Shown: positions 3,731-58,422 of the stretch, piece by piece
Position numbering within the stretch: position 1 is the first letter of the stretch
How the letters are laid out: each line of letters starts with the position of its first letter
From: an uncultured Actinomycetota bacterium
GTDB lineage: Bacteria > Actinomycetota > Actinomycetes > Actinomycetales > Microbacteriaceae
Direction: 5' to 3'
NCBI GenBank assembly: GCA_963716965.1
Contig: CAVQUZ010000001.1
Span: forward strand, 524,061 to 588,060
DNA: 64,000 nt
The notes under the pieces: model-generated
Told to the model about the DNA's origin: nothing
Seen by the model: only the letters and a program-made list of their open reading frames with translations
Databases searched by the model: none
Program-made: the position numbers and the translations under genes

Positions 3731-5034
3731 CCGATCTTCGTGCCAGCACCAGCCCGTCGACAGCGGCCGCCTTCTCGGCGCCGCTCTCGGAGGTCGACCC
3801 CGAGATCGCCGAGGTGCTCGCCCTCGAGCTCGGCCGTCAGCGCAACACGCTCGAGATGATCGCGAGTGAGAACTTCGTGCCGCGCGCGGTGCTGCAGGCG
3901 ACGGGCAGCGTCCTCACGAACAAGTACGCCGAGGGCTACCCCGGCCGCCGGTACTACGGCGGATGCGAGTTCGTCGATGTCGCGGAGGAATTGGCGATCG
4001 CCCGCGCGAAGTCGCTGTTCGGTGCCGAGTTCGCGAACGTGCAGCCGCACTCCGGCGCGACCGCGAACGCGGCGGTCCTCGCGGCGCTCGCCGAGCCGGG
4101 CGACACCATCCTCGGACTGGAGCTCGCGCACGGGGGGCATCTCACCCACGGCATGCGGCTGAACTTCTCCGGCAAGCTGTACACCGCGACTGCGTACGGG
4201 GTCGACCCGAACACCTTCCGCATCGACATGGACACGGTCCGTGACGCCGCGCGCGAGCACAAGCCCTCGGTGATCATCGCGGGCTGGTCGGCCTACCCAC
4301 GGCAGCTCGACTTCGCGGCGTTCCGCGAGATCGCCGACGAGGTCGGCGCGAAGCTGTGGGTCGACATGGCGCACTTCGCGGGACTCGTCGCCGCCGGACT
4401 GCATCCGTCCCCGGTCCCGTACGCGGACGTCGTCTCGACGACCGTCCACAAGACGCTGGGCGGCCCGCGCTCCGGTCTCATCGTCGCGCGCAGCACCGAG
4501 TACGCCAAGAAGCTCAACTCGGCCGTGTTCCCCGGTCAGCAGGGCGGCCCGCTGATGCACGTGATCGCCGCCAAAGCGACCGCACTGAAGCTCGCCGCGA
4601 CGCCCGAGTTCGCCGAGCGACAGCTGCGGACACTGAGCGGCGCCCGCCTGCTCGGGGAGCGGCTCACGGCGCCGGACAGCCGGGCGGCAGGGGTCGACGT
4701 GCTCACGGGAGGCACCGACGTGCATCTCGTCCTCGCCGACCTCCGCGACTCGGCCATCGACGGCAGGCAGGCCGAGGACCGGCTGCACGAGGTCGGCATC
4801 ACCGTCAACCGCAACTCGGTCCCGTTCGATCCGCGTCCGCCGATGACGACCTCCGGTGTGCGCATCGGCACGGCGGCGCTCGCCACCCGCGGCTTCGGCG
4901 ACGCGGAGTTCACGGCGGTCGCCGACATCATCGCCCGCACGCTGCGGACCGACGCGGACCTCACCGCGCTGCGCGGCGAGGTCGAGGACATCGCGGCCCG
5001 CTTCCCGCTCTACGCAGGGCTCGAGGACTGGTGA
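3727..5034 (+). CDS. glyA: Serine hydroxymethyltransferase
   Basis: ATG at 3727 after a GGAG-like RBS. The protein matches SHMT throughout ([37 protein letters not shown], the PLP-lysine region [15 protein letters not shown]). Its stop overlaps the folD start. Confidence 0.95.
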
Positions 5035-32686: not shown

Positions 32687-33562
32687 TCATGCAGCGATGT
32701 CGCCGTGCACGATCGCGGTCGGTGTCTGGATGTTCATCAGGGCGTCGTGGCACACCGCGCCGAGCGCACTCGGCGACCCCGCAGGACGCCGGGCCGCGCC
32801 AAGCACCAGCAGCTGGCCGCCGAGCGCGGTCGTGACGAGCGACCGTGCGATCGATCCGCGAACGGCGCGCACCTCGACCCGGGTCCCCGGGCTCGCGTCG
32901 AGCGCCGAAGCGCGGAACCGGCCGAGCAGGCGCTCCGCGCCCAGGAGACCGGACTCGCTCCGCGTCGCCTCCTCGGTCTCCGTCGCGGGGAGCGCCCAGA
33001 CGCGCACGATCAGCAGCGTCGTCCCCATGGACGCCGCCTCGCCGATCGCGAAGGCGAGCGCGGCCCGACCGGTCTCCGACTCGTCGGCCCCGAGCACGAC
33101 GGCCCCCTGCGCGGCCACCGGCAGCGCGGGGACGACGACGACCGGGCATCGGGCCGTCGCGGCGAGCTGCAGGCTGGTCGACCCGTAGACGGTGCCCTGG
33201 ATGAATCCGGACTTGTGCGTGCCGACGACGACCATCGCGGCGCGCGGCGTGGCTGCTCCCAGCGCCCACATCACACTGCCGTGCGTACGCCCCGTGCGAA
33301 CACGGATGGCCGAGTCGACCGAATGGACGAACAGGAGCTCGCGGGCGAGCAGCTCCCGCGCGCCGCGCGCCGGCCCGGGCAGTGTCCGGGTCCGCACGTG
33401 CAGCAGTGCGATCGGGGCGCCGGTGGCCGAAGCGTGGCGGGCGGCCCACCACACGGCGGCATGGGCGGATCCGGTGTCGGCGACACCGACGACGATCTCG
33501 GCGTCGTGGGAAGGCGCCGAAGCACGACCGAGCACGCGGTTCGGGTACGCGCGGGCGGTCAT
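32687..33562 (-). CDS. Tandem universal stress protein (two UspA domains)
   Basis: Two repeated Usp halves (IVVGVADTGSAHAAVWWAARHA ... VVVGTHKSGFIQGTVYGSTSLQLAATARCPVVVVP, and AVVLGADESETGRAALAFAIGEA ... LVLGAARRPAGSPSALGAVCHDALMNIQTPTAIV). The start could be 33604. Confidence 0.8.
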   Translation of the reverse strand: MTARAYPNRVLGRASAPSHDAEIVVGVADTGSAHAAVWWAARHASATGAPIALLHVRTRTLPGPARGARELLARELLFVHSVDSAIRVRTGRTHGSVMWALGAATPRAAMVVVGTHKSGFIQGTVYGSTSLQLAATARCPVVVVPALPVAAQGAVVLGADESETGRAALAFAIGEAASMGTTLLIVRVWALPATETEEATRSESGLLGAERLLGRFRASALDASPGTRVEVRAVRGSIARSLVTTALGGQLLVLGAARRPAGSPSALGAVCHDALMNIQTPTAIVHGDIAA

Positions 33563-33696
33563 CCGCCCAAGCTCGTCGCGCCCACGCCCTCCGGCTAGTG
33601 CCAAACGACCCGTCTCGCCTCTGCCATGCGCTCTACACTCGAAGAGCAGCCCTGACGACTTTTCCGCGGGACGGCTCCCGATGCGGAGGTGGTCCA

Positions 33697-35258
33697 GTGG
33701 ACGGCGTCGGTGGCGGGCCGCCCGGCGACGCGGTCTCGGCCGTCGCGGAGTCCGAGATCGACGCCGCGCTCGAAGGCGTCCTCGTCGCCGCCGATCGCCT
33801 GCTCGGTGCCGGATACAGCGCGGTCGCGGACATCACCGCTCCCGGTGGCGCCATGCGCGCGGCGCACCGGCACCTCGGCGCGGAGCACATCGCACTGCTC
33901 GAATCCGGCTTCCGACTCACGGGACTCATGGATCGGCTGCTCGACGCGACCGACCTCGAGGACCGAGCCGACCCGGGTGCCGCAGGCGACGACCCGCCGC
34001 TGCGGGTGATGGCGGTTCCGGTCAGGTGGGCGGGTGCGGCTCGGGGCGCTCTCGTCGTGGCTGCAGTCAGGTCGACCCCGTTCACGGAGGACGACGCGGC
34101 CGTGCTCGGCTCTCTGGCGGCGACCGCGGCGGTCGCGTTGGGCTACGCCGAACTGCGCGCCGCCGCACGCCATCGACAGGCGTGGGCCGATGCATCGGCC
34201 GAGACGTCGGCTGCGCTGCTCACCGGCGAGCTCGAGGACCCGGCGGGATTCCTCGTGGCACGCCTCCGCGCCGTCGCCGACGACGCGTACGCGTCCGTCA
34301 TGCGTGTCAGCGACGGCCGGCTCGGCGTCGCGGGCGTCATAGGGCTGGACGGTCTCGGCGTAGGCGACGAGGTGGCCCTCAGGGATTCCGTGGCGGGCAT
34401 CGTCCTCGAGTCGCGACAGCCCAGACGCACCGATGCCGGGTCCCTCACGTCGACGGCCACCGAAGGTGCCGGGGGCCCCCTGATGGTCGCGCCGATGCGC
34501 TCCTCGGAGGGGGTGATCGGTGTGGTGGGGCTGGGACGGCTCGCCGGCGCCCCGCGCTACTCGACCGTCGAGCTCGGGCACTTCGCCGACTTCGTGGACC
34601 ATGCCACCGTCGCGCTGCTCCTGGCGGAGGCGAGGGCGGACCGGGACCGTGGCCTGCTGCTCGAGGATCGCGCCCGCATCGCCCGCGATCTGCACGACAC
34701 CGTCATCCAGCAGTTGTTCGCCGCCGGTCTCGAATTGCGGGCGACCGCCGCGGACGTGGCGGATGCACGGGTGCAGGCCGGCGTCCGGCACACGGTGACG
34801 CTCATCGACGCGTCCATCAGCCGGATCCGGACGGCGGTGCTCGCGATCTCGGCGGATCCAGCACACGGGTCCCTCCGGCACCGGATCCTGGACATCGTGA
34901 GCGACCTGCGGCGCGAGTTCGCCGAGCCCCCCGAGCTCCGGTTCGAGGGACCGATCGAACTCGTCTCGGACGGCGGCCTGGACGACGACCTCGTCGCGGT
35001 GGTGCGGGAGGCGTTGACCAACGTCGCACGGCACGCCGCTGCCGCGCGCACCGGTGTCCGCATCGCGGTCGTCGGGGAGCGGATCCGCGTGGAGGTGTGG
35101 GACGACGGGCGGGGTATGCCGTCACGACCGGAGCGGCGTGGGCTCGCGAACCTCGCCGAACGCGCGGCGCACCGCGGCGGCACATTCACCGTCGACAGCG
35201 CGTCGGGCACGACCCGTGCGGGTGGACCGTGCCGCACGGCACTGCGAGTGCGGCGTGA
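33697..35258 (+). CDS. Sensor histidine kinase with N-terminal GAF domain(s), HisKA_3 dimerisation and HATPase_c (DevS/DosS / NarX-like); 3' end ambiguous
   Basis: GTG after a GGAGG box. A GAF region is followed by HisKA_3 (RARIARDLHDTVIQQLFAAGLEL with the phospho-His) and HATPase (LVAVVREALTNVARHA ... VWDDGRGMP ... GLANLAERAAHRGGTFTVDSASG). The reading frame has no stop until 36351. A TGA in frame 0 overlaps the RR start as GTGA, implying a local frame problem. Confidence 0.7.
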
Positions 35259-35907
35259 GCGCGCCGATCCGCGTCTTCCTCGTCGACGACCACGAGCTCG
35301 TCCGCCGGGGCATCGCGTCGTTCCTCAGATCGGCTCCCGACATCGTCATCGTCGGCGAGGCGTCGACCGGAGCCCAGGCCACGAGCCGGATCGGCGTCAT
35401 GCTGCCCGACGTCGTCCTGCTCGACGTTCGGCTTCCCGATCGCAGCGGTATCGACGTGTGCCGAGAGCTCAAAGTGCGTTCGCCGCAGGTCGCCTGCATC
35501 ATCGTCACGGCATACGACGACGACGCCGCGATCCTCGCCGCGGTCGTGGCAGGCGCCGCGGGTTACGTGCGGAAGGACGTGGCCGGCAGTGCCCTCGTGG
35601 ACGGTATCCGCGCAGCGGCCGCCGGGCGCTCGCTGCTGGACGCGGCCCTCGTCGAACGCGTCAATCGACAGCTGCGGGACGCACGCCTCGGCCACGCGCG
35701 TCTCGCGGACCTCAGCCGACGAGAGGCCGAGGTGCTCGGGCTGATCGCGGACGGGCTGACGAATCGCGAGATCGCCCGCACGATGTCCCTCGCCGAGAAG
35801 ACGGTGAAGAACTACGTGTCCAGCCTGCTCTCGAAGCTCGGCCTGCGGACCCGGACCCAGGCGGCCGTGCTGCGCACGACGGCGTCGGCGACCGACAGCC
35901 CGCCGGA

Positions 35908-35914
<7 letters not shown>
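35255..35914 (+). CDS. LuxR/NarL-family response regulator (REC + HTH)
   Basis: The REC domain (IRVFLVDDHELVRRGIASFLRS ... VVLLDVRLPDRSG) is followed by a LuxR HTH (LSRREAEVLGLIADGLTNREIARTMSLAEKTVKNYVSSLLSKLG). Confidence 0.9.
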
Positions 35915-37693: not shown

Positions 37694-38800
37694 ATGACTG
37701 ATCTCGCGGACCGGCCCGTCCGGCGTACGGTGCCGCGCACCGCCGTGGCGGGGGCGTCGGTGCCGGCGTTCGCGAGCTCGTACACGGCGCTCGCGAAGCG
37801 CGTCAAGGCGGAACACCTCCTCGACCGCCGCGGTGGCTCCTACATCCTCAGGGGCGCCGTCCTCGTCGCGCTCTTCGCGGTCGCGTTCACCCTGCTCGCC
37901 GTCCTGGGCCGCACCTGGTGGCAGCTGCTCGTCGCGGTCGGGTTCGCGGTGCTCTTCACGCAGGCCGCATTCCTCGCGCACGACGCCGCGCACAAGCAGA
38001 TCTTCGCCTCCGGCCCGCGCGGCGAGGCGTTCTCCCGCGTGCTCGGCAACCTGGTGGTCGGACTGAGCTACGGCTGGTGGATGACGAAGCACACGCGTCA
38101 CCACGCCAACCCGAACACGATCGGGCGCGACAACGACATCGAGCCCGGCGCGATCGTGTTCGTCTCCGACGACGTGCTCGCGCGCACCGGCCTCGCCCGC
38201 TGGCTGGCGGCCAGACAGGCCCTCTTCTTCATCCCGATCCTGCTCTTCGCCGGTATGGACCTGCATCGCAACGCGGTCAAGGCGGTCCTCGGTGGGGAGC
38301 CGGTGGCGCACCGGGTGCAGGAGGGCGTGCTCATCGCCGTCCGCCTCGTCGGGTTCACCGCGCTCGTGTTCATGCTGCTCGGGCCCGCGCTCGGCGTGGT
38401 CTTCATGCTGGTCCAGCTCATGGCGTTCGGCGTCTACATGGGCGGCACCTTCGCCCTGAACCACATCGGCATGCCGCTGATCGGCCACGATCAGAAGGTG
38501 GACTTCTTGCGTCGTCAGGTCCTGACCTCGAGGAACATCGCCGGCGGATGGCCGATGGCGAAGCTCATGGGCGGCCTGAACTACCAGATCGAGCACCACC
38601 TGTTCCCGAGCATGCCGAGCGCGAATCTCGCGCGGACCCGCGTCCTCGTGCGCGCCTACTGCGCCGAACTCGGTGTGCCGTACACCGAGAACTCGTTCGC
38701 CGGGGCATGGCGGATCGTGCTCCGGTATCTGCACCGCGTCGGCATCGGCAGCATGGACCCGTTCGACTGCCCGGCAGCGGCGGCGTTCCGCACCGCCTGA
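37694..38800 (+). CDS. Membrane fatty-acid desaturase (DesA3-like acyl-lipid/acyl-CoA desaturase)
   Basis: It carries the three His boxes (HDAAHKQ, HTRHHANPN, HHLFPSMP) with intervening TM helices. 368 aa. Confidence 0.85.
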   Translation: MTDLADRPVRRTVPRTAVAGASVPAFASSYTALAKRVKAEHLLDRRGGSYILRGAVLVALFAVAFTLLAVLGRTWWQLLVAVGFAVLFTQAAFLAHDAAHKQIFASGPRGEAFSRVLGNLVVGLSYGWWMTKHTRHHANPNTIGRDNDIEPGAIVFVSDDVLARTGLARWLAARQALFFIPILLFAGMDLHRNAVKAVLGGEPVAHRVQEGVLIAVRLVGFTALVFMLLGPALGVVFMLVQLMAFGVYMGGTFALNHIGMPLIGHDQKVDFLRRQVLTSRNIAGGWPMAKLMGGLNYQIEHHLFPSMPSANLARTRVLVRAYCAELGVPYTENSFAGAWRIVLRYLHRVGIGSMDPFDCPAAAAFRTA

Positions 38801-38812
38801 CTCTCGAAAACG

Positions 38813-39199
38813 TCAGGCGGACTGCACCAGCTGCAGGAGATTGCCACAGGTGTCGTCGAGCACCGCGATGGTGACCGGTCCCGCCGGGGTCGGCGGCCGC
38901 GTGAAGGTGACGCCCGACGATCGGAGGCGCTCGTACTCCGCGTGCAGGTCGTCGACGCCGAGTTGCAGGAACGGGATGCCGTCGGCGACGAGCGCGGTGG
39001 TGAACGGACCGACCGCGGGATGCGCCTTCGGTTCGAGCAGCAGGCGCGTGCCGTCCGGTGCATCGGGCGAGACGACGGTCAGCCACCGATACTCGCCGAC
39101 CGGGACGTCAGCGGCGACCGTGAACCCGAGCACGGTCGTGTAGAACTCGAGGGCGCGCTGCTGGTCGTCGACGAACACGCTGACCGTTTGGATCCTCAT
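38813..39199 (-). CDS. VOC (glyoxalase/bleomycin-resistance/dioxygenase) family protein
   Basis: 128 aa. MRIQTVSVFVDDQQRALEFYTTVLGF is the typical VOC beta-alpha-beta-beta-beta opening. Confidence 0.75.
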   Translation of the reverse strand: MRIQTVSVFVDDQQRALEFYTTVLGFTVAADVPVGEYRWLTVVSPDAPDGTRLLLEPKAHPAVGPFTTALVADGIPFLQLGVDDLHAEYERLRSSGVTFTRPPTPAGPVTIAVLDDTCGNLLQLVQSA

Positions 39200-39220
39200 G
39201 TTCGACAGGCTGCCACGCCG

Positions 39221-41772
39221 CTACGACCGTGCGCTCACGAGCTCGTCGGCGTGCGTGCCGGGGAGCGGATGCGTCCGCTCGAGCTGACGCGCCCTCGACG
39301 TCGACGTCCGGGCAGGATCCGGTCGAGCCACTTCGGGAACCACCAGGCCGAGCGGCCGAGCAGGTGCATCGCCGCCGGGATCAGCAGCATCCGCACGATG
39401 AACGCGTCGGCCAGTACGCCGAACGCGAGTCCGAAGCCGATCGGCCGGATGGTCGGCGGAGTCGGAGAAGATGAAGCCCGAGAAGACCGAGATCATGATG
39501 ATCGCTGCCGCGGTCGACGACCGGTCGTCCCGCGTGCAGGCCCCGCTGCACGGCGAGCTTCGCGCCGGCGCCGTGCACGTACGACTCGCGCATGCCCGAC
39601 ACCAGGAACAGCTGGTAGTCCATGGCGAGGCCGAACAGGATGCCGATCTCGATGATGGGCAGGAAGCTCAGGATCGGTGCCGGGATCGTGCACCCCGAAG
39701 ATCTGGTGCAGCCAGCCGAACTGGTAGATCGCGGTCAAACCCCCGAACGTCGCGAAGAGCGACAGCACGAAACCCGCGGTCGCGGTGATCGGCACGAGGA
39801 GGGACCGGAACACGATGATCAGGATGATGAGCGAAAGGCCGACGACCACGACGAGGTAGAGCGGCAGGACGCCGGCCGAGGCTCTCGGAGATGTCGATGT
39901 TCGCGCTCGCGTTGCCGGCCACGCCCAGGGTCACGGCTTCCGGCGACTAGTCGTGACGGGGGAGAGGTCGCGCAGGTCGTGGACGAGGGTCTCGGTCGCT
40001 TCGGACGACGGGCCGCGTCGTCGGCAGGACCTGGAACGCGATGACCGTCCTGTCGGTGGACTGGCCGATCGGCAGCGACCGCGGCGACGTGGGACTGCGC
40101 GCGGATCTTCTCGCCGATCGTCGACCTCCAGCTGGAGAAGCGGTGTGCCCGTCGTCGCCTTCGGCAGGTCCGCGACGACGAGCAACGGACTGTTCTGGCC
40201 CGGCCCGAACGAGGCGGCCGTCACCTGGTACGCCTTGTACTGCGCTGGAGATCGACGGCTTCCGAAGAGCCCATCGGCAGGCCGAGCCGGATGTGCATTG
40301 CGGGCAGCTGCGATGACGCCGAGCACCGCCACGCCGGCGACGAGCGTCGCGATCGCCCGCCACGTCGCCATCGGCTTGGTCGGCACGCGAGTCGCATGCG
40401 GGTGGCCGATCGTCGGCGCGCTCCTTCTTGCGCAGCATGCGCATCCCCACGAGCGACAGCAGCGCCGGCGTGAAGGTGATGGCGATGAGCACGGCGACCG
40501 CGACGGCCAGCGCGCCGACCGTGCCCATGAGTCCGAGGAACGGGATGCCGGTGATGTTGAGGGCGAGCAGTGCGACGATCGACGGTCGAGCCCGCGAACA
40601 CGACCGCGTTGCCCGAGGTGCCATTGGCGAGTCCGATCGACTCGTGCACGGACATGCCCTGTTTCAGCTGTGTCCGGTGCCGGTTCAGGATGAAGAGCGA
40701 GTAATCGATGCCGACCGCGATCCCGAGCATCAGCGCGAGCACGGGCGTGACGGAGACGAACTGCGACGATGCTCGAGAACGAGAGCGCGGCGAGGAGTGC
40801 GACTCCGACCCCGAACAGTGCGCTGATGAGCGGAAGCACCGCGCCGATGACGGTCGAGAGGATGACGAGCAGCACGATCGCGGCGACCAGTAAGCCGACG
40901 ACCTCGCCGGGGCCGATCACCGATGGCACACCCTCCGCGATGTCGTTCGAGACGTAGACGTGCACGCCGCCGATGGCGGCATCGGCAGCCCTGGCCTCGA
41001 TGGCGGTTTTCGTCGCCTGCGGCACCTCGGTCGTCGCTTTCGTGAACCGGACGGTCGCGATGGCCGCAGTGCCGTCGGTGGAGACCAGCCGGACGTTCGT
41101 CGAGAGCGCCAGCAGCCGGGTGCCGAGCGCCAGCTTGGTCTCGTTCGTCGCGAGCCTCGTCCGGTTCGAGTCGATCGTCTTCTGACCGGCGTCGAGGGCC
41201 TTCTGCTGCGCATCGATCTGCGCCTGGCCCGCATCGATCCGGGCCTGCACGAAGGCGAGCTGACCGGCTGCCTCGGCCTGCGCCCTCTGTGCGTCGAGCT
41301 GCTGCTGCGCCGCGTCCAACCGCTTCCGGCCGGCGTCGAGCTTCGCCTGCGCGGCGTCCAGCTGCTTCTTGCCGTCGGCGATCTGTTTCGTACCGTCCGC
41401 GGTCTGCTTCCGCTGATCGTCGAGTTTCCGCTGTGACGAGAAGGGGTTCACGGTCGCCCGGACACCCGGCAGGTCGCCGATTTCGGAGAGGAGCGACTCC
41501 ACGCCGGCCTTCTGCGCGCTCGTGAAGGCGTTCCCGGTCGACGTCTCGAACACGATGCCGCCCGAGCCGCCGCTCGCGGACGGGAACTTCTTCGCGAGCT
41601 CGTCGGTGACCTTGCTCGTCGCTGTGCCTGGGATCGAGATCGACGACGAGATCGAGCCGCCGAACAGCGCGTAGCCGACGCCCGCGAGCGCGAGTATCAG
41701 CAGCCACGAGACGATGACGGTCCAGCGACGTCGGGCCGCGAATCGCCCGAGTCGGTAGAGGAGGCCTGCCAT
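39221..41772 (-). pseudogene. MMPL-family (RND-type) transporter, disrupted by at least seven frameshifts
   Basis: The N-terminal 338 aa is intact (coiled-coil periplasmic domain, LPLISALFGVGVALLAALSFSSIVAV). Conserved MMPL segments then appear in alternating frames (MLALMLGIAVGIDYSLFIL, ALLALNITGIPFLGLMGTVGALAVAVAVLIAITFTPALLSL, LVVGLSLIILIIVFRSLLVPITATAGF, MDYQLFLVSGMRESYVHG, MISVFSGFIFSDS), separated by Arg-rich nonsense. Confidence 0.75.
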
Positions 41773-41791
41773 GGCGGGGCCCTTCCTTCGT

Positions 41792-42430
41792 TCAGTCGGG
41801 GGCGTATCCGGAGCGGATGCGCACGAGCAGGCGGTCGAGCAGTGCGGACCATTCGGCCAGTGACGCCGGGTCGAGGCGTCCGCCGGTCGTCCGGATCCAG
41901 TGCTCGGCGAGCACGGCGATGCCGTGGATCAGCGAGCTCACGAGCAGTTCGGCGTCGAGCGGGTCGACGCCCGGGTTCCGGCGCTCGACCTCGGCGAGCA
42001 GTCGGTCGCCGACTCGGGCGAACGCCGCCTCCGACAGGTCGAAGGCCCGTGCGGTCGAGGTGTCGGGGCCCCCGAGGATGCGCAGGAGTGCGACGATCGC
42101 GTCGGGCAGATGCGAGGCACGGATCGCGGTCTCGAGTTCGTCGAACATCGAGGACGGGGTGCCGTCGCCGACCGGGATCTCGGACACCGTCGTCAGGAAG
42201 TCGTCGACGATGATCGCGAGCACATCGGCGCACACCGTCAGCAGCACGTCGTCCATGCCGGCGAAATGGTTGAAGACCGTCCGTCGGGCGACGTCCGCCT
42301 TCGCAGCGAGATCGTCCACGCTGAATGACGGACCACCGCGCTCGTCGATGAGTGCGCGGGCGGCGTCCAGGATCGCGTCCCGATGCCGCAGCTTGAGCGC
42401 CAGACGGCGATCGGGCACGGCGAGGGTCAC
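41792..42430 (-). CDS. TetR/AcrR family regulator, first gene of the tetR-mmpL operon
   Basis: 212 aa with an N-terminal HTH (FSVDDLAAKADVARRTVFNHFAGMDDVLL). It ends 20 nt upstream of the MMPL start. Confidence 0.85.
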   Translation of the reverse strand: MTLAVPDRRLALKLRHRDAILDAARALIDERGGPSFSVDDLAAKADVARRTVFNHFAGMDDVLLTVCADVLAIIVDDFLTTVSEIPVGDGTPSSMFDELETAIRASHLPDAIVALLRILGGPDTSTARAFDLSEAAFARVGDRLLAEVERRNPGVDPLDAELLVSSLIHGIAVLAEHWIRTTGGRLDPASLAEWSALLDRLLVRIRSGYAPD

Positions 42431-42491
42431 AGGATGACACTAAGTGCATCGATGCACTCAGTGCACCGATGCGCGGGTGTGTCGTCCGAGA

Positions 42492-43950
42492 TCAGGCCTC
42501 CGTCTGCTCGAGCACCGCCTCCGCTCGACCTGGACCGCCATCGGCGAGGCCGCGGTCGATCGCGCCGCGAGACGCGAGCCACATGCCGATGCCGACCAGG
42601 AACACGATGACCTCGGTGACGGTCAGCGCCCAGATGATGCCGGCCAGCCCGAACCAGAGGTTGCCGAGAATCACGATCGGGATGAACAGGATGCCCTGCG
42701 CCATCGACATGACGATCGCCGGCGTCGCCCGCCCCGTGGCCTGGAAGAGCGACGTGATCAGACCGGTGAAGCCGTTCGCGATCATCGCCACGAGCTGGGC
42801 GGTGAGGATCGTGACGCCGATCGCGAGCACCGAGGGGTCGGCCGAGAAGGCGGCGAGCACCTGGTCGCGCAGCACGAAGACGGTCACGGCGAAGATCGAG
42901 GCTGATGCCGCCGACGGTGATCGCCGATGCGCGCAGCGCCGAGGAGAGACGGTGCCGGTCGCCCTTGCCGTAGGAGTAGGCGAGCAGCGGCAGCACGCCG
43001 AGCGTGACGCCCATCACCAGGAACTCCGGCACCTGGGCGATGCGGACCGCGACGCCCATGGCGGCGAGCGGGCCGTCGCCGTAGCTGGACCGCGAGGTTG
43101 TTGAGCACGAGCGAGGTGACGATCAGGAAGGCCGACTGCAGCAGCTCGCCGACGCCGACGCCGAAGACCGGCTTGATCACCGCGGGCGAGAGGGTGAACC
43201 AGCGCGGCGCGAGGCTGACGTGCTCGCTGTGCCGCTGCAGCCAGAAGACGAAGTAGGCGACGGTGACGCAGGTTCGCGAGACCGGTCGACAGCGCGGCGC
43301 CGGCGACTCCCCAGTGCAGCACCAGGATGAACAGGACGTCGAAGACGAGGTTCGCGATCGTCGAGGCGATGAGCCCGATCATCGCCTGACGCGACGGCGC
43401 CCTCGGCCCGCACGAGCTGCTCGAGGCAGAACGCCGCGGCGAGCACGGGGACGAAGGCCAGCATGACGCGCGACGAAGGCGCTCGTCGCGGGGAACGGCG
43501 CCGGCATCGGCGCCGAGCAGCGGTCACGAGCGGGTGCAGCAGCAGCAGGCCGGCGCCGCCGAGCACGGCGCCGACGATCACCGAGCCCCACACGGCGAAC
43601 GACGAGACGTGCTTGATCTCGCCGGCCTTCGCCGGGTCGTGCTCCGAGGCGCCGAGCAGGCGGGAGATGAGCGCGCCGCCGCCGACGCCGAACACGCCGC
43701 CGATCGCCATCACGAGGCCGAGCAGCGGCGAGCCGAACGTGACCGCGGCGAGCAGGACCGTGTCGTGCAGTGAGCCGATGAAGCCGGCGTTGATGACGTT
43801 GTAGACGGCGCCGACGATCATCGCGGCCGCCATCGGCACGCAGAGGTGCACGAGGGCGCGGATGATCGGGGCCGCCGACAGGTACCAGCGGTTCGTGCCC
43901 GGCAGGTCGAGGGGTGGGGCGGAGGCGGATTCGGCGTTCGAGGCGGTCAT
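42492..43950 (-). pseudogene. MATE-family efflux transporter, disrupted by several frameshifts
   Basis: The N-terminal 140 aa is intact (PIIRALVHLCVPMAAAMIVGAVYNVINAGFIGSL). MATE segments follow in other frames (MIGLIASTIANLVFDVLFILVLHWGVAGAALSTGLAN, VFGVGVGELLQSAFLIVTSLVLNNLAV, MGVAVRIAQVPEFLVMGVTLGVLPLLAYSYGKGD, and the C-terminal FVLRDQVLAAFSADPSVLAIGVTILTAQLVAMIANGF...). Confidence 0.7.
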
Positions 43951-44051: not shown

Positions 44052-44501
44052 TTACCGGCTCGGGGGCGGCAGCTCCGCGGTGATCTTGTGCAACAGGGTG
44101 AGCAGGGTCTCCCGCTCGGCGGGACTGAGCGGGGCGAGGATCGTCTCGTCTGCCGCGATCATCGCGTCCTCGAAGCCGGCGATGAGTTCGGCGCCGGCCG
44201 TGGTCGCGTAGACGCGCTTGCTGCGCTCGTCGCCGTCCTCGGTGCGTCGTTCGACGAGGCCGCGCCGCTCGAGCCCCTGCAGGAGGCTCGAGACGCTCGC
44301 CGCGCTGGTGCGGCTCATCCGCGCGATGTCGCGCTGGATCGAGCCGGGGTTCTGGGCGAGATAGCCGAGCGCGAAGCCCTGCTCGAAGCTCAGTTCGCGC
44401 GCTCGGATCCAGTCCTCGGCGGCCTTCCGCTGAGCCCAGCCGATCCAGCGGAGCAGCCCGAGGCTGGTCGTGAAGTGCGGCTCCTCTGCGTCCATGGTCA
44501 C
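44052..44501 (-). CDS. MarR-family transcriptional regulator (upstream of the MATE gene)
   Basis: 149 aa with a wHTH (LSFEQGFALGYLAQNPGSIQRDIARMSRTSAASVSSLLQGLERRGLVERR). Confidence 0.85.
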   Translation of the reverse strand: MTMDAEEPHFTTSLGLLRWIGWAQRKAAEDWIRARELSFEQGFALGYLAQNPGSIQRDIARMSRTSAASVSSLLQGLERRGLVERRTEDGDERSKRVYATTAGAELIAGFEDAMIAADETILAPLSPAERETLLTLLHKITAELPPPSR

Positions 44502-45637: not shown

Positions 45638-47155
45638 TCATCCCGTCGTGGCGGTGAGGGTGACGACCGCCCACGCGACCGGCGGCAGTGCAACGGTCAG
45701 CCGGCCGTCCTCGCAAATCTCGACGGGCAGATCCGCGATCGTGATCCGGTCCTGGTCGGCAAGCGTGTTCGCCGCCGAGAAGTCGTCATCGGCGAGCAGA
45801 TGCGCTTCGGCCACCGTGACCGCGCCGAGCGCCCGCACATCCACCTCGATCGAGGTGGTCTCGGTCTGGCTGCGATTGACCAGGAACACGCTCGTCGTCC
45901 CGTCGGCGTGTGTGGCGACCGCGTCGACGACGTCGACGGTGCCGTAGCGCGGCGTCTCGTACCGGTCGGACGTGATCCGGGTGTCGAGCACCTGGCCGGT
46001 GGCGAGGCGCGAGGTGAGGGCGAACGGGTGGAACGTGGTCTGCTTCCAGGCGTCGCCGCCCGGTTCGGTCATGATCGGCGCGATCGCATTCACCAGCTGC
46101 GCGAGGCTGGCCGATGTCACCCGGTCGGCGTGCCGCAGCAGCGAGATCAGCAGGCTGCCGAACACCACGGCGTCGGCGACGGTGTACACGTCCTCGAGCA
46201 GGCGGGGAGCGATCGGCCACGTCTCGATGTCGGTGATCTGGTCCTCGGCGTGGAATCGCGACTGGTACCAGACGTTCCACTCGTCGAACGAGATGTTGAT
46301 CGTCTTGTCGCTGCCGCGCACCGCCTTCACGTGATCGGCGGTCGCCGTCACCGAGTCGATGAAGCGGTCCATGTCCGTCGCCGAGGCGAGGAAGCTCGCG
46401 AGGTCGCCGTCCTTCTCCTCGTAGTACGCGTGGCACGAGATGTAGTCGACGTCGTCGTACGTGTGCTCGAGCACGACCCGTTCCCACGTGCCGAAGGTCG
46501 GCATCGTGCGGCTCGAGCTGCCGCACACGACGAGTTCGAGCCGCCCGTCGATCTGTCGCATCGCCTTCGCGGTCTGGCTGGCGAGCGTGCCGTAGTCCTC
46601 GGCGGTCGCGTGGCCGAGCTGCCACGGCCCGTCCATCTCGTTGCCGAGGCACCACATCCGCACGTCGAACGGGGCGACCGACCCGTTCGCTGCGCGCTGA
46701 TCCGTGAGCGTGGTGCCGGCCGGCACGTTCGCGTATTCGAGCAGCTTGATGGCGTCGCTGACGCCCCTCGTGCCGAGGTTGACGGCGAGCATCAGCTCCG
46801 AACCCGCCTTCTCGATCCACGACGCGAACTCGTGCAGGCCGACCTGGTTCGTCTCGACCGAGTGCCAGGCGAGGTCGAGCCGCGTGGGCCGCTCGTCCTT
46901 CGGGCCGATGCCGTCCTCCCATTCGTACCCCGAGACGAAGTTGCCTCCCGGGTAGCGGATCGTGGAGACGCCGAGCTCCCGCACCAGGTCGAGGACGTCC
47001 TGTCGGAAGCCTTCGGCGTCGGCGGTCGGATGTGTCGGCTCGTAGATGCCCGTGTAGACGCAGCGTCCGAGGTGCTCGACGAACGACCCGAAGAGCCGGC
47101 GGTTGACCGGGGCGATCGGGAATCGCGGATCGACGACAAGTCGGGCGTGCTTCAT
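45638..47155 (-). CDS. Alpha-L-arabinofuranosidase, GH51
   Basis: 505 aa matching AbfA throughout (IRYPGGNFVSGYEWEDGIGP ... WCLGNEMDGPWQLGH with the catalytic acid/base Glu ... ISFDEWNVWY nucleophile region). Confidence 0.9.
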   Translation of the reverse strand: MKHARLVVDPRFPIAPVNRRLFGSFVEHLGRCVYTGIYEPTHPTADAEGFRQDVLDLVRELGVSTIRYPGGNFVSGYEWEDGIGPKDERPTRLDLAWHSVETNQVGLHEFASWIEKAGSELMLAVNLGTRGVSDAIKLLEYANVPAGTTLTDQRAANGSVAPFDVRMWCLGNEMDGPWQLGHATAEDYGTLASQTAKAMRQIDGRLELVVCGSSSRTMPTFGTWERVVLEHTYDDVDYISCHAYYEEKDGDLASFLASATDMDRFIDSVTATADHVKAVRGSDKTINISFDEWNVWYQSRFHAEDQITDIETWPIAPRLLEDVYTVADAVVFGSLLISLLRHADRVTSASLAQLVNAIAPIMTEPGGDAWKQTTFHPFALTSRLATGQVLDTRITSDRYETPRYGTVDVVDAVATHADGTTSVFLVNRSQTETTSIEVDVRALGAVTVAEAHLLADDDFSAANTLADQDRITIADLPVEICEDGRLTVALPPVAWAVVTLTATTG

Positions 47156-48423
47156 GGCTGCTCTTTCGTTCGGGCGGTCGAAGTCGTGGTGGCGGCGGCG
47201 GAGTAGTGGTCGGCGAAGGGCGTGCGCACGCGGGGCAGGCTGCCGAACCCATCGGGCTCGATGCGCCAGAGCCCTGCTCCGTCATCGCCGAAATAGGACT
47301 CGAGCGGCTTCGTCTCGTGGCGGTAGCGCCAGGCGACGGAGTCGAACAACGGCCACCAGGTGTGACCGACGACGGGGACGCCGTCGGCGCGCAGCGCGTC
47401 GATCGCGGCGAGCGACGCGTCGAACCATGCGGCTTTTGCGGCGTCGTCCGCATGGACGTTCGTCTCCGTGAGCATGACCGGGCGGTCGTAGCGCTTCCAG
47501 AAGGCCCTGAGCAGTTCGGACAGGCCGTCCGTCCAGCCGTTCAGCCGTGGGCGGGGGTCCGCGAGCGTGCCGGCGTGCGTCACACCCTGTTCGAACGCCT
47601 CCGTGCTCTGGTGCGGGTAGTAGTTGACGCCCATGACGTCGGGCTGCGCGGTCGTCGCGCGATGCCACTGCAGGCTCGCCTCGGGGAACCCGGCCCGGAG
47701 CAGCCATGGCACGAGCGGATGATCGTCGCCCACTGCCCCGGTCACCAGGTCCTCGACCAGGAAGGCTCGGTGGCGCAGGTGGGCGACGAGGTCCGGTTCC
47801 GCCTCGACGTCGCCGCCGAACCGGTACGACGCCTCGACATGGACGAACGACGCGCGGGCTCCCTGCACGTCTGCGATCGCCTGCTGCGTCAGCACGATTC
47901 CTCGCGTGATCCGCTCGAGGATCCGGACGAATCCGTCGTCGCCGCGGAAGTACGGCGGCCATTCCGCGTACTCGCCGCAGTAGAGCGCGTTCAGCAGCGG
48001 TTCGTTCATCGGCGTGAAGACGTCGAGGCGGTCGCGGTACCGCTCTGCGATCGCGGCACCGTACTCGGCGACGCGCTCGGGATAGGCCGCGTTCGCGAAG
48101 CCGTTCTGGAGCCAGAGCGGGGTGCCGTAGTGCATCAGATCGACGATCGGCGTCAGGCCGAGCTCCGCGAAGCGATCCACGACCCGGTCGAGCCAGCCGA
48201 ACTCCCAGCGGCCCCGCTCCGGATTGACGCGGTACCACGGGACGCCCCAGCGGACCATCGTGGCGCCGGTCTCAGCGGCGAGCGCGAGGTCGGACCACCA
48301 CAGCCGGTCGTGCTGGGTGAGCTCGTACTCGTCGAGCTTCCGCGCACCCGGGGACTCCTCCGCGATGAATGTGTCCTCGATGCCGATCGCGAAGTGGAAC
48401 GAGTCGCCTGCGAAGCGGCTCAC
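47152..48423 (-). CDS. GH1-like glycoside hydrolase, paralog 1
   Basis: GTG in a GTGA overlap with the stop of paralog 2, and its own stop overlaps the GH51 ATG. It has a TIM-barrel glycosidase-like NEP motif (TPMNEPLLNALYCGEYAEWPPY) and a TE(T/N) region (VMLTETNVHADD). It is about 65% identical to paralog 2. Family assignment is tentative. Confidence 0.7.
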   Translation of the reverse strand: MSRFAGDSFHFAIGIEDTFIAEESPGARKLDEYELTQHDRLWWSDLALAAETGATMVRWGVPWYRVNPERGRWEFGWLDRVVDRFAELGLTPIVDLMHYGTPLWLQNGFANAAYPERVAEYGAAIAERYRDRLDVFTPMNEPLLNALYCGEYAEWPPYFRGDDGFVRILERITRGIVLTQQAIADVQGARASFVHVEASYRFGGDVEAEPDLVAHLRHRAFLVEDLVTGAVGDDHPLVPWLLRAGFPEASLQWHRATTAQPDVMGVNYYPHQSTEAFEQGVTHAGTLADPRPRLNGWTDGLSELLRAFWKRYDRPVMLTETNVHADDAAKAAWFDASLAAIDALRADGVPVVGHTWWPLFDSVAWRYRHETKPLESYFGDDGAGLWRIEPDGFGSLPRVRTPFADHYSAAATTTSTARTKEQP

Positions 48424-49679
48424 GCCGGGCGCCCGACGGGTGCCGACTCGAGCGCGTGGGCGCGGAACCGATCGACGAGCGGCGTCCGGACCCGGTGCAG
48501 CACGCCGACGGTGTCGGCTTCGAGGGTCCAGAGTCCGCCGTTGCTGAAGTAGGTCTCGACGGGCGCGGTCTCGTTGCGGTAGGACCATTCGAGCCAGTCG
48601 ATGACCGCCCACCACGTGTAGCCGACGATCGGCATGCCGCCGTCACGCAGCGCACGGACCTTCGCGATCGATGCGTCGAGCCAGTCGGCGCGGACCTCGT
48701 CGCTGCCGGTCGCGCTCGTCTCGGTCAGCATCACCGGCTTGCCGTAGCGGTCGGCGAACCGCCGGAGCAGGTCCTCCATGCCGTCCGTCCACTCGTTGAC
48801 CCGTACCCGCGGATCGCGGACGCTGCCCGACGGCGTCCCTTCGCGCTCGAAGAGCTCGGTCGAGACGAGCGGGTAGTAGTTGACGCCCATCACGTCGGGC
48901 TCGGCGAGGTGTGCACGGTGCCAGTCGAGGCTCGACTGCGGGAAGCCGTTGGCGAGCAGCCACGGCGTGAGCGGATGCGCGTCGTCGACGCGGCCGGTGA
49001 GGAGGTCCTCGATCAGGAACCCGCGCCGCCGCAGGAATTCGACGCGGTCGGTGTGCGATCCCGTCGGGTCCGTGAAGCGGTACCCGGCCTCGACGTGCAC
49101 GAACGTGGCCGCATCGCCCTGCACCTCGGTGATCGCCTGCTGCGTGAGCACGATGCCCCGCGCGATCCGTTCGAGGATCCGCACGAAGCCGTCGTCGCCC
49201 GTGAGGTACGGCGGCCATTCGGCGTCCTCGCCGCAGTACACGACGTTGAGCAACGGCTCGTTCAGCGGTGTCCAGACGTGCAGGGCGTCCCGGTAGCGCT
49301 CGGCCACCTTCGCGGCGTACTCGGCGACCCGCTCGGGGTAGTGCGCGTTCGCGAACTCGTTCTCGAGCCAGAGCGGGGTCCCGTAGTGCATCAGGTCGAC
49401 GATCGGGGTGAGCTCCAGGTCCTGGAACCGGGCGACCACGCGATCGAGCCAGGAGAAGTCCCACGTGCCTGGTGCCGGGTTCACCCGGTACCAGGGGATG
49501 CCCCAGCGCACCATCGTGGCGCCCGACTCCGCGGCGAGGCCGAGGTCGGCGTGCCAGTAGTGGGAGTGCTGCGTGATCTCGTACTCGTCGAGCTTGCGTT
49601 TCCCGAGTGCCTCCTGCGGGATGAACGTGTCCTCGATCCCGACCGCGAACCGCAGTTCCGGCGCTTCGAACCACTTCAT
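48420..49679 (-). CDS. GH1-like glycoside hydrolase, paralog 2
   Basis: MKWFEAPELRFAVGIEDTF ... TPLNEPLLNVVYCGEDAEWPPY ... VMLTETSATGSD. This is a tandem duplicate of the downstream gene. Confidence 0.7.
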   Translation of the reverse strand: MKWFEAPELRFAVGIEDTFIPQEALGKRKLDEYEITQHSHYWHADLGLAAESGATMVRWGIPWYRVNPAPGTWDFSWLDRVVARFQDLELTPIVDLMHYGTPLWLENEFANAHYPERVAEYAAKVAERYRDALHVWTPLNEPLLNVVYCGEDAEWPPYLTGDDGFVRILERIARGIVLTQQAITEVQGDAATFVHVEAGYRFTDPTGSHTDRVEFLRRRGFLIEDLLTGRVDDAHPLTPWLLANGFPQSSLDWHRAHLAEPDVMGVNYYPLVSTELFEREGTPSGSVRDPRVRVNEWTDGMEDLLRRFADRYGKPVMLTETSATGSDEVRADWLDASIAKVRALRDGGMPIVGYTWWAVIDWLEWSYRNETAPVETYFSNGGLWTLEADTVGVLHRVRTPLVDRFRAHALESAPVGRPA

Positions 49680-49695
49680 GTGCGTCGTGCTCCTT

Positions 49696-50571
49696 CTACT
49701 TCATGCCTGTGGTGGCGATGCCCTCGACGAACCGGCGCTGGACGAACAGGAACACGATCACCATCGGCAGCAGGGCCAGCAGCGAACCGGCCATGAGGAT
49801 GCCGAAGTTGGTGATGTGTTGGCCCTTGAACAGGGCGAGGCCGGCGGCCAGGGTCTCCATGTCGGTGCTGGTCGTGATGATGAGCGGCCAGATGAGGTCG
49901 TTCCAGTTCGCCAGCAGGTTGAACAGAGCGATCGTCAGGATGGCCGGCTTCGCGAGCGGCATCATCACCCGCAGCCAGATGACGAATTCGTTCGCACCGT
50001 CGATGCGGGCGGCGTCTTCGAGGTCGTTCGGCAGGCCGATGAAGAACTGCCGCATGAAGAAGATGCCGAACGCGTCAGCCGCGTGCGGCACGATCAGCCC
50101 TTGATAGGTGTTGATCCACCCGAGATCGCTCAGCTGCTGGAAGAGCGGCACCAGCGTCACCTGGAACGGCAGCATCAACGTGATCACGATGACGATGAAG
50201 ACGACGTTCTGCCCTCGGAATGTGAAGCGCGCGAGCGCATAGCCCGCCATCGAGTCGAACGTGACGGACAACGCCGTCACGACGCCCGCGTAGATGACGG
50301 TGTTCAGCAGCTGCCGGGCGAACGGGATCTGCGTCCAGATCTGTACGAAGTTGTCGAGCGTGAAGGGCACGGGCCACATCGAGAACGGGTGGCTCACGAT
50401 GTCGCCCTGTGTGCGGAACGAGGCCGTGACCAACCAGACGAACGGCAGCAACGTGACCGCTGACGCGACGACGAGGACGACGATCGCGAGGGCCGTGCCG
50501 AGCCGTCCCGGGCGGTTCAGCCGGGACACGCGGGCACGCGGGGGAGTCGACACGAGCTGGGTCGAAGCCAT
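49696..50571 (-). CDS. Carbohydrate ABC transporter permease (MalG/AraQ-like)
   Basis: 291 aa with six TMs and an EAA loop region (DLEDAARIDGANEFVIWLRVMMPLAKPA). Confidence 0.9.
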   Translation of the reverse strand: MASTQLVSTPPRARVSRLNRPGRLGTALAIVVLVVASAVTLLPFVWLVTASFRTQGDIVSHPFSMWPVPFTLDNFVQIWTQIPFARQLLNTVIYAGVVTALSVTFDSMAGYALARFTFRGQNVVFIVIVITLMLPFQVTLVPLFQQLSDLGWINTYQGLIVPHAADAFGIFFMRQFFIGLPNDLEDAARIDGANEFVIWLRVMMPLAKPAILTIALFNLLANWNDLIWPLIITTSTDMETLAAGLALFKGQHITNFGILMAGSLLALLPMVIVFLFVQRRFVEGIATTGMK

Positions 50572-58318: not shown

Positions 58319-58350
58319 GCGGCCGCCGCATCGGACCGGCGCTCGCTTCG

Positions 58351-58422
58351 TGGGCCCCGTCGGGCTCGAACCGACGACCCAGGGATTAAAGTCCCTTGCT
58401 CTACCAACTGAGCTAGAGGCCC
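58351..58422 (-). tRNA. tRNA-Lys(UUU)-like gene with a 6-nt anticodon loop (CTTTAA); no encoded CCA
   Basis: The minus-strand sequence GGGCCTCTAGCTCAGTTGGTAGAGCAAGGGACTTTAATCCCTGGGTCGTCGGTTCGAGCCCGACGGGGCCCA folds into a cloverleaf. It has a 7-bp acceptor stem (one G-U), D arm GCTC/GAGC, anticodon stem AGGGA/TCCCT, T arm GTCGG-TTCGAGC-CCGAC and discriminator A. Canonical Lys-UUU loops are CTTTTAA, so one T appears to be missing. Confidence 0.75.

What the first reader, a model, noticed from the sequence alone, without database searches (positions are those of the whole stretch)
39221..43950. Two consecutive efflux operons (tetR-mmpL and marR-MATE) with both transporter genes shattered by multiple frameshifts
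The MMPL ORF is intact for 338 codons. After that, every conserved MMPL segment sits in a different frame, giving at least seven shifts in about 1.5 kb. The adjacent MATE gene shows the same pattern, with at least four shifts. Both cognate regulators (TetR 41792-42430, MarR 44052-44501) and the surrounding genes are intact, and long genes elsewhere in the window (pckG, argG, dipZ, the pst genes) are clean. This looks like targeted decay of two drug/lipid exporters rather than random sequencing noise. A locally poor assembly (collapsed repeat, low coverage) is the alternative.
Basis: seen in the sequence. Interest (0 to 1): 0.7.

Follow-up and report, generated by a model that had tools for sequence, protein, structure and literature searches.

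The report
Assembly-error frameshifts in two efflux genes
Two drug/lipid exporter genes look shattered by about 24 single extra bases, but the pattern of those bases points to a consensus error in two strain-variable stretches of the assembly, not to real gene decay.

Summary
On the minus strand the genes run marR, MATE, tetR, mmpL. The mmpL gene (39221-41772) carries 17 extra bases between 39284 and 40763. The MATE gene (42492-43950) carries 7 between 42897 and 43521. Both regulators are intact.

The lesions do not look like decay:
- All 24 are +1 insertions, with no deletions.
- Only 2 of the 16 mapped to the base extend a homopolymer.
- There are no premature stops, and GC3 stays at 0.9-1.0 in each fragment.
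- The repaired proteins align end to end with intact homologues.

An independent assembly of a near-identical strain (Logan contigs of run ERR11523676) has an open mmpL over the stretches its two contigs cover, all but about 120 bp of the gene. It matches the window 100% in the flanks (1.8 kb and 0.7 kb). Inside the tract it differs by 1.5%, mostly at synonymous sites. In 10 of 16 cases the extra base and its neighbour read like the two alleles of a synonymous SNP written side by side.

A DevS-like kinase (about 35.2 kb) and a tRNA-Lys (58.4 kb) also carry small indels. Best reading: a consensus artefact where two haplotypes were merged. Low biological interest; read-level data are needed to close it.

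The parts
39221..41772 (-). mmpL (MMPL/RND-type exporter) gene. It is 843 aa once 17 extra bases are removed.
   Evidence: Frameshift-aware alignment to the intact 844-aa and 902-aa homologues of L002 and L001 is end to end, 73% identical, with 1 gap and no internal stop. The repaired protein hits PF03176 at 252 bits in two stretches. The best database homologue is 81% identical.
39284..40763 (-). Tract A: 17 single extra bases at 40763, 40579, 40412, 40307, 40250, 40246, 40124, 40076, 40015, 39948, 39939, 39871, 39681, ~39515, 39454, 39313 and 39284, plus 22 substitutions relative to the Logan allele.
   Evidence: Base-by-base alignment with L004 and L005. The site near 39515 comes from the protein alignment only. 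Substitutions are 15 synonymous to 7 nonsynonymous.
41792..42430 (-). tetR regulator, intact.
   Evidence: Matches PF00440. It is 100% identical to the Logan contig L004 at both protein and DNA level.
42492..43950 (-). MATE efflux gene. It is 483 aa once 7 extra bases are removed.
   Evidence: Frameshift-aware alignment to P0001 and P0003 gives 84.8% identity and no internal stop. The repaired protein hits PF01554 at 105.6 bits in two stretches.
42897..43521 (-). Tract B: 7 single extra bases near 43521, 43493, 43468, 43395, 43268, 43087 and 42897. Positions are accurate to within a codon.
   Evidence: No near-identical intact allele was available to place them to the base.
44052..44495 (-). 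marR regulator, intact (147 aa from the ATG at 44495).
   Evidence: Matches PF12802 and PF01047. The 147-aa product is on record from the source contig.
38813..39199 (-). Glyoxalase/VOC gene, the downstream flank, with no differences from the Logan strain.
   Evidence: zero differences from 39283 to 38591.
35213..35222 (+). Two extra bases (CC->CCC at 35213-35215, GG->GGG at 35220-35222) in the 3' end of a DevS/DosS-like histidine kinase. As written, the gene loses its stop codon.
   Evidence: Removing both gives ...GTTVRWTVPHGTASAA* with a stop at 35258. HATPase_c then scores 42.8 bits, against 35.5 as written. The repaired end aligns in register with M. tuberculosis DevS 3ZXO (...ASGTVLRWSAP).
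58350..58422 (-). tRNA (Lys-like) with a 6-nt anticodon loop CUUUAA, one base short.
   Evidence: ARAGORN reports 'tRNA-??? anticodon (tt)'. The Rfam alignment shows one missing loop position.

Best explanation
The frameshifts are most likely consensus errors in the deposited assembly, not mutations in the organism.

The two tracts (39284-40763 and 42897-43521) are places where two closely related haplotypes differ by a few percent. The haplotypes could be co-occurring strains or, less likely, a collapsed paralogue. Everywhere else the two are nearly identical.

Where reads of both haplotypes were merged into one consensus, some variant sites received the allele of one haplotype. These appear as the 22 mostly synonymous substitutions. 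At other sites both alleles were written one after the other, which shows up as a single extra base that differs from its neighbour. Each such site shifts the frame by +1.

On this reading the organism's real mmpL and MATE genes are intact, at about 843 and 483 aa.

Shown directly:
- the positions and nature of the extra bases;
- the open mmpL allele in an independent assembly (about 120 bp, 39497-39616, is not covered by either Logan contig);
- the coincidence of the extra bases with raised SNP density;
- the pattern of purifying selection in the substitutions;
- other small indel errors in the same record.

Inferred: that the source reads hold two haplotypes, and that the consensus step turned mismatches into insertions.
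For: 1. All 24 lesions add bases and none removes one. Against the near-identical Logan allele the count is 16 insertions to 0 deletions.

2. The extra base equals a neighbour in only 2 of 16 cases, against 8.1 expected for random insertions (P=0.0015). Replication slippage and homopolymer miscalls both predict the opposite.

3. In 10 of 16 cases, swapping the extra base for its neighbour gives a synonymous change at codon position 3. Random insertions give 5.5 (P=0.02). The other 6 give conservative swaps (E/Q, V/I, E/D, V/L, A/S-V, G/E). Two of those match the residue found in homologues.

4. The extra bases coincide with a patch of raised divergence from the Logan strain of run ERR11523676. 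There are 0 differences over 1790 bp (42555 to 40764) and over 693 bp (39283 to 38591). Inside the 1480-bp tract A there are 22 substitutions and, counting the ~39515 site known only from the protein alignment, 17 insertions. A control region at 47054-50070 shows 5 substitutions and 0 indels in 3017 bp.

5. The substitutions are 15 synonymous to 7 conservative, and 15 of 22 fall at codon position 3. There are no premature stops, and GC3 stays at 0.9-1.0 in every fragment. The allele evolved as a working gene.

6. The density is the same in both tracts, roughly one extra base per 90-100 bp. The tract borders ignore gene borders (codon 337 of mmpL; codons 142-348 of MATE).

7. The same record has other base-level indel problems in unrelated genes: the DevS-like kinase and the tRNA anticodon loop.

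8. Intact tetR-mmpL and marR-MATE pairs are the norm in relatives. The frameshifted MATE fragments exist only in the one source contig.

9. Published precedent exists. Nearby allelic variants in collapsed long-read assemblies cause wrong read alignments and INDEL errors that truncate ORFs (PMC8445201). Long-read assemblers collapse strains of about 98.65% identity into one consensus (PMC8302730).
Against: - No reads were available, so the presence of two haplotypes in the source data is inferred, not seen.
- I do not know the sequencing platform, the assembler, or whether the record is an isolate or a metagenome bin.
- The model does not predict why no variant site became a deletion.
- It also does not predict why 7 of 16 extra bases complete a 6-10 nt palindrome (2.2 expected, P about 0.003, post hoc).
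- From 42555 to about 42680 the window diverges from the Logan contig, and from there to 42897 there is no frameshift, so divergence and insertions do not coincide perfectly at that edge.
- The second extra base in the kinase gene (GG->GGG) looks like an ordinary homopolymer error rather than a doubled SNP.
Confidence: 0.77

Rival explanations
1. Real, strain-specific inactivation of both exporters. The lineage accumulated 24 single-base insertions in mmpL and MATE while keeping the regulators.
For: The frameshifts are in the public record, not only in the window. Both affected genes are efflux pumps lying next to each other, while tetR, marR and the neighbouring genes are open. The palindrome-completing bias of the extra bases is not explained by a simple error model and could hint at a sequence-directed process.
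Against: - There are no deletions, no nonsense codons, and no loss of GC3.
- The substitutions are 15 synonymous to 7 conservative. A gene dead long enough to collect 17 indels should show many unselected substitutions. From general knowledge, bacterial point mutations outnumber indels roughly tenfold, and indels are deletion-biased and homopolymer-bound.
- The tracts begin and end in mid-gene at equal density.
- A non-exporter gene has the same lesion type.
- A strain 99.8-100% identical elsewhere has an open gene over the parts its contigs cover.
Confidence: 0.1
2. Still an artefact, but from plain read noise. The two tracts were covered thinly, or were gaps filled from noisy long reads, and random insertion errors survived the consensus step. 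Allelic variation plays no part.
For: The errors are insertions only, at a uniform 1% density, in tracts of about 0.6 and 1.5 kb with sharp edges next to error-free sequence. The record has other small indel errors. Long-read assemblies are known to leave frameshifting indels (PMC8445201, PMC9262707).
Against: - Random insertions should equal a neighbour about half the time, but only 2 of 16 do (P=0.0015).
- They should not preferentially mimic synonymous SNPs (P=0.02).
- Noise does not explain why the tract also carries about 10 times the background density of genuine, selection-filtered substitutions.
Confidence: 0.1
3. The genes are expressed despite the extra bases, through programmed +1 frameshifting, transcriptional slippage or RNA editing.
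For: All shifts go in the same direction (+1), and each fragment keeps perfect coding character.
Against: There is no shared slippery or stimulatory motif at the 16 mapped sites, and the extra bases are C, G, A and T in roughly genomic proportions. A near-identical strain and all relatives encode the same protein in one frame. No bacterial system is known that removes 17 arbitrary bases from one message (my own knowledge).
Confidence: 0.01

Closest known systems
INDEL errors at allelic variants in collapsed long-read assemblies (for example the Trypanosoma brucei Lister 427 collapsed versus phased assembly, PMC8445201; strain-oblivious metagenome consensus, PMC8302730)
   Same: The apparent frameshifts and pseudogenes sit where two haplotypes differ. 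The flanks are clean. The ORFs are restored once the alleles are separated. The lesions are indels rather than substitutions.
   Different: Here the mixture is inferred from a second assembly, not seen in reads. All errors are +1 with none -1. A palindrome-completing bias has no counterpart in those reports.
Residual homopolymer indels of nanopore or other long-read assemblies (PMC9262707, PMC8812927)
   Same: They also produce frameshifted genes in otherwise good assemblies. The tRNA loop (UUUU read as UUU) and the GG->GGG site in the kinase fit this class.
   Different: Twenty or more of the 24 transporter lesions are not in homopolymers, and they cluster in two tracts rather than scattering.
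Genuine multi-lesion pseudogenes of genome-reducing Actinobacteria (Mycobacterium leprae, Leifsonia xyli subsp. xyli), cited from my own knowledge
   Same: A transporter gene is interrupted many times while its neighbours stay intact.
   Different: Real pseudogenes mix deletions, insertions, stops and unselected substitutions, and they lose codon-position bias. None of that is seen here.
tetR-mmpL and marR-MATE regulator-exporter pairs of Microbacteriaceae (L001 Curtobacterium sp. Leaf261, L002 Amnibacterium endophyticum, L007, L008)
   Same: Same gene order within each pair, same lengths, and 73-85% protein identity after repair.
   Different: In those genomes each pair is intact, and the two pairs are not adjacent to each other.

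Membership tests
MMPL family transporter (RND superfamily, PF03176) | Two MMPL/SSD-type transmembrane domains in one polypeptide of about 840-900 aa, colinear with family members. | tested here: met
   The repaired 843-aa product hits PF03176 at 252.5 bits in 2 stretches. It aligns end to end with 844-aa and 902-aa homologues, and the top hit is 81% identical over 99% of its length. This holds only after 17 bases are removed.
MATE efflux transporter (PF01554) | Two MatE repeats in a protein of about 450-490 aa. | tested here: met
   The repaired 483-aa product hits PF01554 at 105.6 bits in 2 stretches. It is 84.8% identical to P0001 and P0003 over the full length. This holds only after 7 bases are removed.
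Genuine decaying pseudogene | Relaxed selection: unselected substitutions, nonsense codons, loss of codon-position bias. | tested here: not met
   Substitutions are 15 synonymous to 7 conservative, with 15 of 22 at codon position 3. There are no internal stops after repair. GC3 is 0.9-1.0 in each fragment.
Genuine decaying pseudogene | A natural indel spectrum: deletions at least as common as insertions, mostly in homopolymers or repeats. | tested here: not met
   There are 24 insertions and 0 deletions. Only 2 of 16 are next to an identical base, against 8 expected (P=0.0015).
Genuine decaying pseudogene | The lesions are present in the organism's DNA, supported by reads or by independent assemblies. 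| tested here: inconclusive
   The only other assembly of the locus, from a closely related strain (Logan ERR11523676: L004 and L005), has an open mmpL over the stretches it covers. The frameshifted MATE fragments occur in one contig only. Reads of the source record were not available, so support in the organism's own DNA remains untested.
Consensus artefact at merged haplotypes | The indels coincide with a local excess of true sequence variants between haplotypes, and the flanks are identical. | tested here: met
   There are 0 differences in the 1790-bp and 693-bp flanks. Inside tract A there are 22 substitutions and 17 insertions in 1480 bp. Background is 5 substitutions in 3017 bp.
Consensus artefact at merged haplotypes | The extra base and its neighbour behave as the two alleles of one variant site. 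| tested here: met
   A synonymous reading is possible for 10 of 16 (P=0.02), the rest are conservative, and the extra base almost never equals its neighbour. This is suggestive, not proof.
Consensus artefact at merged haplotypes | Two haplotypes are visible in the reads, and no read carries the doubled bases. | not testable with these tools
   No read data were accessible.
Programmed frameshift or editing site | A recurrent slippery or recognition motif at each shift. | tested here: not met
   The 16 mapped contexts share no motif, and the extra bases are of all four kinds.

The most novel reading that the evidence does not exclude
The insertions are real. On this reading two short tracts, imported by recombination from a diverged relative, were copied by an insertion-prone and partly palindrome-directed repair synthesis. 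That one event peppered them with +1 insertions and knocked out two adjacent exporters (and clipped a DevS-like kinase) while leaving the flanks untouched.
Probability: 0.06. Interest if true: 0.7.

Novelty: not a real feature. Interest (0 to 1): 0.12.

Why it matters
If taken at face value, this locus would be scored as loss of two efflux systems, and annotation pipelines would mark the genes as pseudogenes. The evidence says the genes are most likely intact. It also says the record has local consensus errors where strains or haplotypes differ.

The practical value is a read-free diagnostic. The warning signs are insertion-only lesions outside homopolymers, extra bases that mimic synonymous SNPs, a surrounding patch of selection-filtered substitutions, and preserved GC3. 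Together they flag assembly artefacts in high-GC genomes. This record should be re-polished in a haplotype-aware way before any claims about gene loss are made.

Tried and rejected
Rejected for the transporter tracts: only 2 of 16 extra bases touch an identical base.
- **A single methylation or restriction motif, or blunt-end NHEJ at repeated cuts.** The pre-insertion junctions share no motif, so this was dropped.
- **Palindrome or quasi-palindrome mechanism.** Seven of 16 extra bases complete 6-10 nt palindromes (P about 0.003, post hoc). None of the 7 MATE sites does, and the motifs all differ. Left as unexplained, not adopted.
- **A paralogous copy inside the window that could have been collapsed.** None was found. 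A copy elsewhere in the genome could not be checked.
- **Other assemblies of the locus.** The genome-contig scan gave only relatives at 59-66% identity. A 32-mer from the MATE start found nothing in JGI metagenomes.
- **Exact-protein look-ups.** They failed for MarR (149 aa and 147 aa), the response regulator, the 613-aa and 257-aa fragments and the ABC ATPase. The ABC ATPase, the 147-aa MarR and the 257-aa fragment are in the protein collection, so failures of that index carry no information.
- **An intact MATE allele from the Logan strain.** None could be retrieved, so the MATE insertion sites are placed only to within a codon.
- **Other frameshifts in the window.** The GC3 HMM flagged only the kinase at about 35.2 kb. 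The candidates at about 3.6 kb (ZTP riboswitch leader before glyA) and about 32.5 kb were explained or too short to judge.
Full report
**What is there**

The window has about 70% G+C. By its closest relatives it comes from a member of the Microbacteriaceae. On the minus strand, reading 5' to 3', lie:
- marR (44495/44501 to 44052)
- a MATE gene (43950 to 42492)
- tetR (42430 to 41792)
- an mmpL gene (41772 to 39221)
- a glyoxalase gene (39199 to 38813)

. A GC3 frame plot and a 7-state GC3 hidden Markov model both show the coding phase jumping repeatedly inside the two transporter genes.

**Counting the lesions**

I wrote a protein-to-DNA aligner that allows frameshifts.
- Against the intact 844-aa MMPL of Amnibacterium (L002) and the 902-aa one of Curtobacterium (L001), the window gene is colinear from Met1 to the stop. 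It is clean for 336 codons. It then needs 15 shift events, 13 of +1 and 2 of +2, which is 17 extra bases between 40763 and 39284.
- Against the best MATE homologues (P0001 and P0003) the MATE gene needs 7 shifts, all +1, between 43521 and 42897.
- After repair there is no internal stop. The products are 843 and 483 aa. They hit PF03176 and PF01554 with two stretches each. They are 81% and about 85% identical to their best homologues.

The frameshifted MATE fragments are on record from the 1.36-Mb NCBI/ENA source contig, so the window reproduces the public sequence.

**An independent allele**

The exact TetR and glyoxalase proteins also occur on two short Logan contigs from run ERR11523676, L004 (3049 bp) and L005 (903 bp). 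There the mmpL reading frame is open: at least 714 codons on L004, and the last 90 codons on L005. About 120 bp (39497-39616) lies between the two contigs and is not covered.

Base-by-base comparison shows:
- The window and the Logan strain are 100% identical from 42555 to 40764 (1790 bp, covering tetR and the first 336 codons of mmpL).
- They are 100% identical again from 39283 to 38591 (693 bp).
- Between those stretches the window has 16 single extra bases, no missing base, and 22 substitutions.
- A control contig from the same run (L006, window 47054-50070) differs by only 5 substitutions and no indel in 3017 bp.

The extra bases therefore sit exactly inside a patch where the two strains differ about ten times more than elsewhere.

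**Why this is not decay**

1. Direction. There are 24 insertions and no deletions.
2. Context. Only 2 of the 16 precisely mapped extra bases equal a neighbouring base. Random insertions give 8.1 (P=0.0015). Both replication slippage and homopolymer miscalling predict the opposite.
3. Selection. The 22 substitutions are 15 synonymous and 7 conservative (D/N, T/N, V/I, V/M, R/K, N/T, V/L), with 15 at codon position 3. At several sites the window residue is the family consensus. GC3 stays at 0.9-1.0 in every fragment. A gene dead long enough to gather 17 indels should show many unselected substitutions and stops. This rests on general knowledge of bacterial mutation spectra.
4. Geometry. The tracts start and end in mid-gene and have about the same density in both genes, one extra base per 90-100 bp.
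5. Not exporter-specific. A DevS/DosS-like kinase at about 33.7-35.26 kb reads through its stop as written. Removing two bases (CCC 35213-35215, GGG 35220-35222) restores ...GTTVRWTVPHGTASAA* with a stop at 35258. It also raises the HATPase_c score from 35.5 to 42.8 bits. The repaired end aligns in register with the C-terminus of M. tuberculosis DevS (3ZXO...ASGTVLRWSAP). The only tRNA in the window has a 6-nt anticodon loop, CUUUAA. The record therefore has base-level indel errors elsewhere.
6. Relatives carry intact tetR-mmpL and marR-MATE pairs.

**Most likely mechanism**

In 10 of 16 cases, replacing the neighbour by the extra base gives a synonymous third-position change. Random insertions give 5.5 (P=0.02). 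The remaining six give conservative swaps, and two of those (E/Q at 40763, V/L at 40307) match the residue in L002.

That is what one expects if the two alleles of a SNP were both written into the consensus. The picture that fits all the data is as follows:
- The source reads contained two haplotypes that are identical over most of the region but differ by a few percent in these tracts.
- At some variant sites the consensus took one allele. These are seen as substitutions.
- At other sites it kept both. These are seen as +1 insertions.

Collapsed long-read assemblies are reported to acquire ORF-truncating INDEL errors exactly where allelic variants lie close together (PMC8445201). Long-read assemblers merge strains of about 98.65% identity into one consensus (PMC8302730).

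The coincidence and the statistics are shown. The presence of two haplotypes in the source reads, and the behaviour of the consensus step, are inferred. I put about 0.77 on this explanation. A further 0.1 goes to a plainer noise or gap-fill artefact, about 0.1 to real inactivation, and about 0.01 to recoding.

**What does not fit**

- Seven of the 16 extra bases complete perfect 6-10 nt palindromes: CGATCG twice, GCAGCTGC, GTCGAC, CGACTAGTCG, GCCGGC and GCTCGAGC. Only 2.2 are expected (P about 0.003, found post hoc). None of the approximately placed MATE sites does so. I have no explanation for this and list it as open.
- The model does not say why no variant site became a deletion.
- At the 3' edge of MATE (42555 to about 42680) the window diverges from the Logan contig, and from there to 42897 there is no frameshift.

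**Comparison and novelty**

After repair the genes are ordinary members of the MMPL and MATE families, each with its usual TetR or MarR partner. The 'shattering' is best filed as an assembly artefact, not as a biological feature.

Interest is low. Its use is as a read-free signature for spotting such artefacts, and as a warning against calling efflux loss from this record.

The most novel reading not excluded is a real, insertion-only mutational event confined to recombined tracts. It would be remarkable, but I give it about 6%.

**Decisive test**

Read pile-ups over 38.5-44.6 kb would settle it. The artefact predicts two in-frame haplotypes and no read with the doubled bases. Real decay predicts one haplotype carrying all of them.

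Noticed in passing
window 35213-35222 (+), gene about 33.7-35.26 kb: A DevS/DosS-like GAF-GAF-HisKA_3-HATPase kinase has two extra bases near its 3' end and, as written, runs through its stop into the response-regulator gene. Removing them restores a DevS-like C-terminus and a stop at 35258.
   Followed up: yes
window 58350-58422 (-): The only tRNA in the window (Lys-like) has a 6-nt anticodon loop, CUUUAA, one base short of a normal loop. ARAGORN cannot name its anticodon. This is probably a dropped U in a U-run.
   Followed up: partly
window 39284-40763: Seven of 16 extra bases complete perfect 6-10 nt palindromes, against 2.2 expected. In three cases the extra base is the complement of its neighbour at the centre of an odd inverted repeat. 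This is unexplained.
   Followed up: partly
window 38591-42678 and 47054-50070 versus L004, L005, L006: Similarity to the strain in run ERR11523676 is mosaic. Stretches of 1.8 kb and 0.7 kb are 100% identical, divergence is 0.17% at 47-50 kb, and it is about 1.5% (substitutions only) inside the mmpL tract. This suggests recombination tracts or co-occurring strains.
   Followed up: partly
window 3606-3686 (+): A ZMP/ZTP riboswitch (RF01750, 51 bits) lies directly upstream of glyA (3727-5034), which is followed by a folD-like gene. This is the usual one-carbon-metabolism context. It explains a low-GC3 stretch that at first looked like a frameshift.
   Followed up: partly
window 32687-35914: A universal-stress-protein gene, the DevS-like kinase and a NarL/LuxR-type response regulator sit together. 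The arrangement resembles the mycobacterial DosR/DevR dormancy module.
   Followed up: no
L004 1-124 (= window 42555-42678, 3' end of MATE): The end of the Logan contig carries 5 substitutions and a compensating +1/-1 pair in 124 bp. Several give non-consensus residues (for example D for A in a membrane helix), whereas the window matches the family. This is either a more diverged allele or a contig-end error in the Logan assembly.
   Followed up: no
window 41100-41450 (-), MMPL residues about 110-215: The first extracytoplasmic loop of the MMPL protein holds a long Gln/Ala-rich, coiled-coil-like insert (…DAAQAKLDAGRKRLDAAQQQLDAQRAQAEAAG…). Relatives share it, and in several of them it attracts extra Pfam hits.
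   Followed up: no
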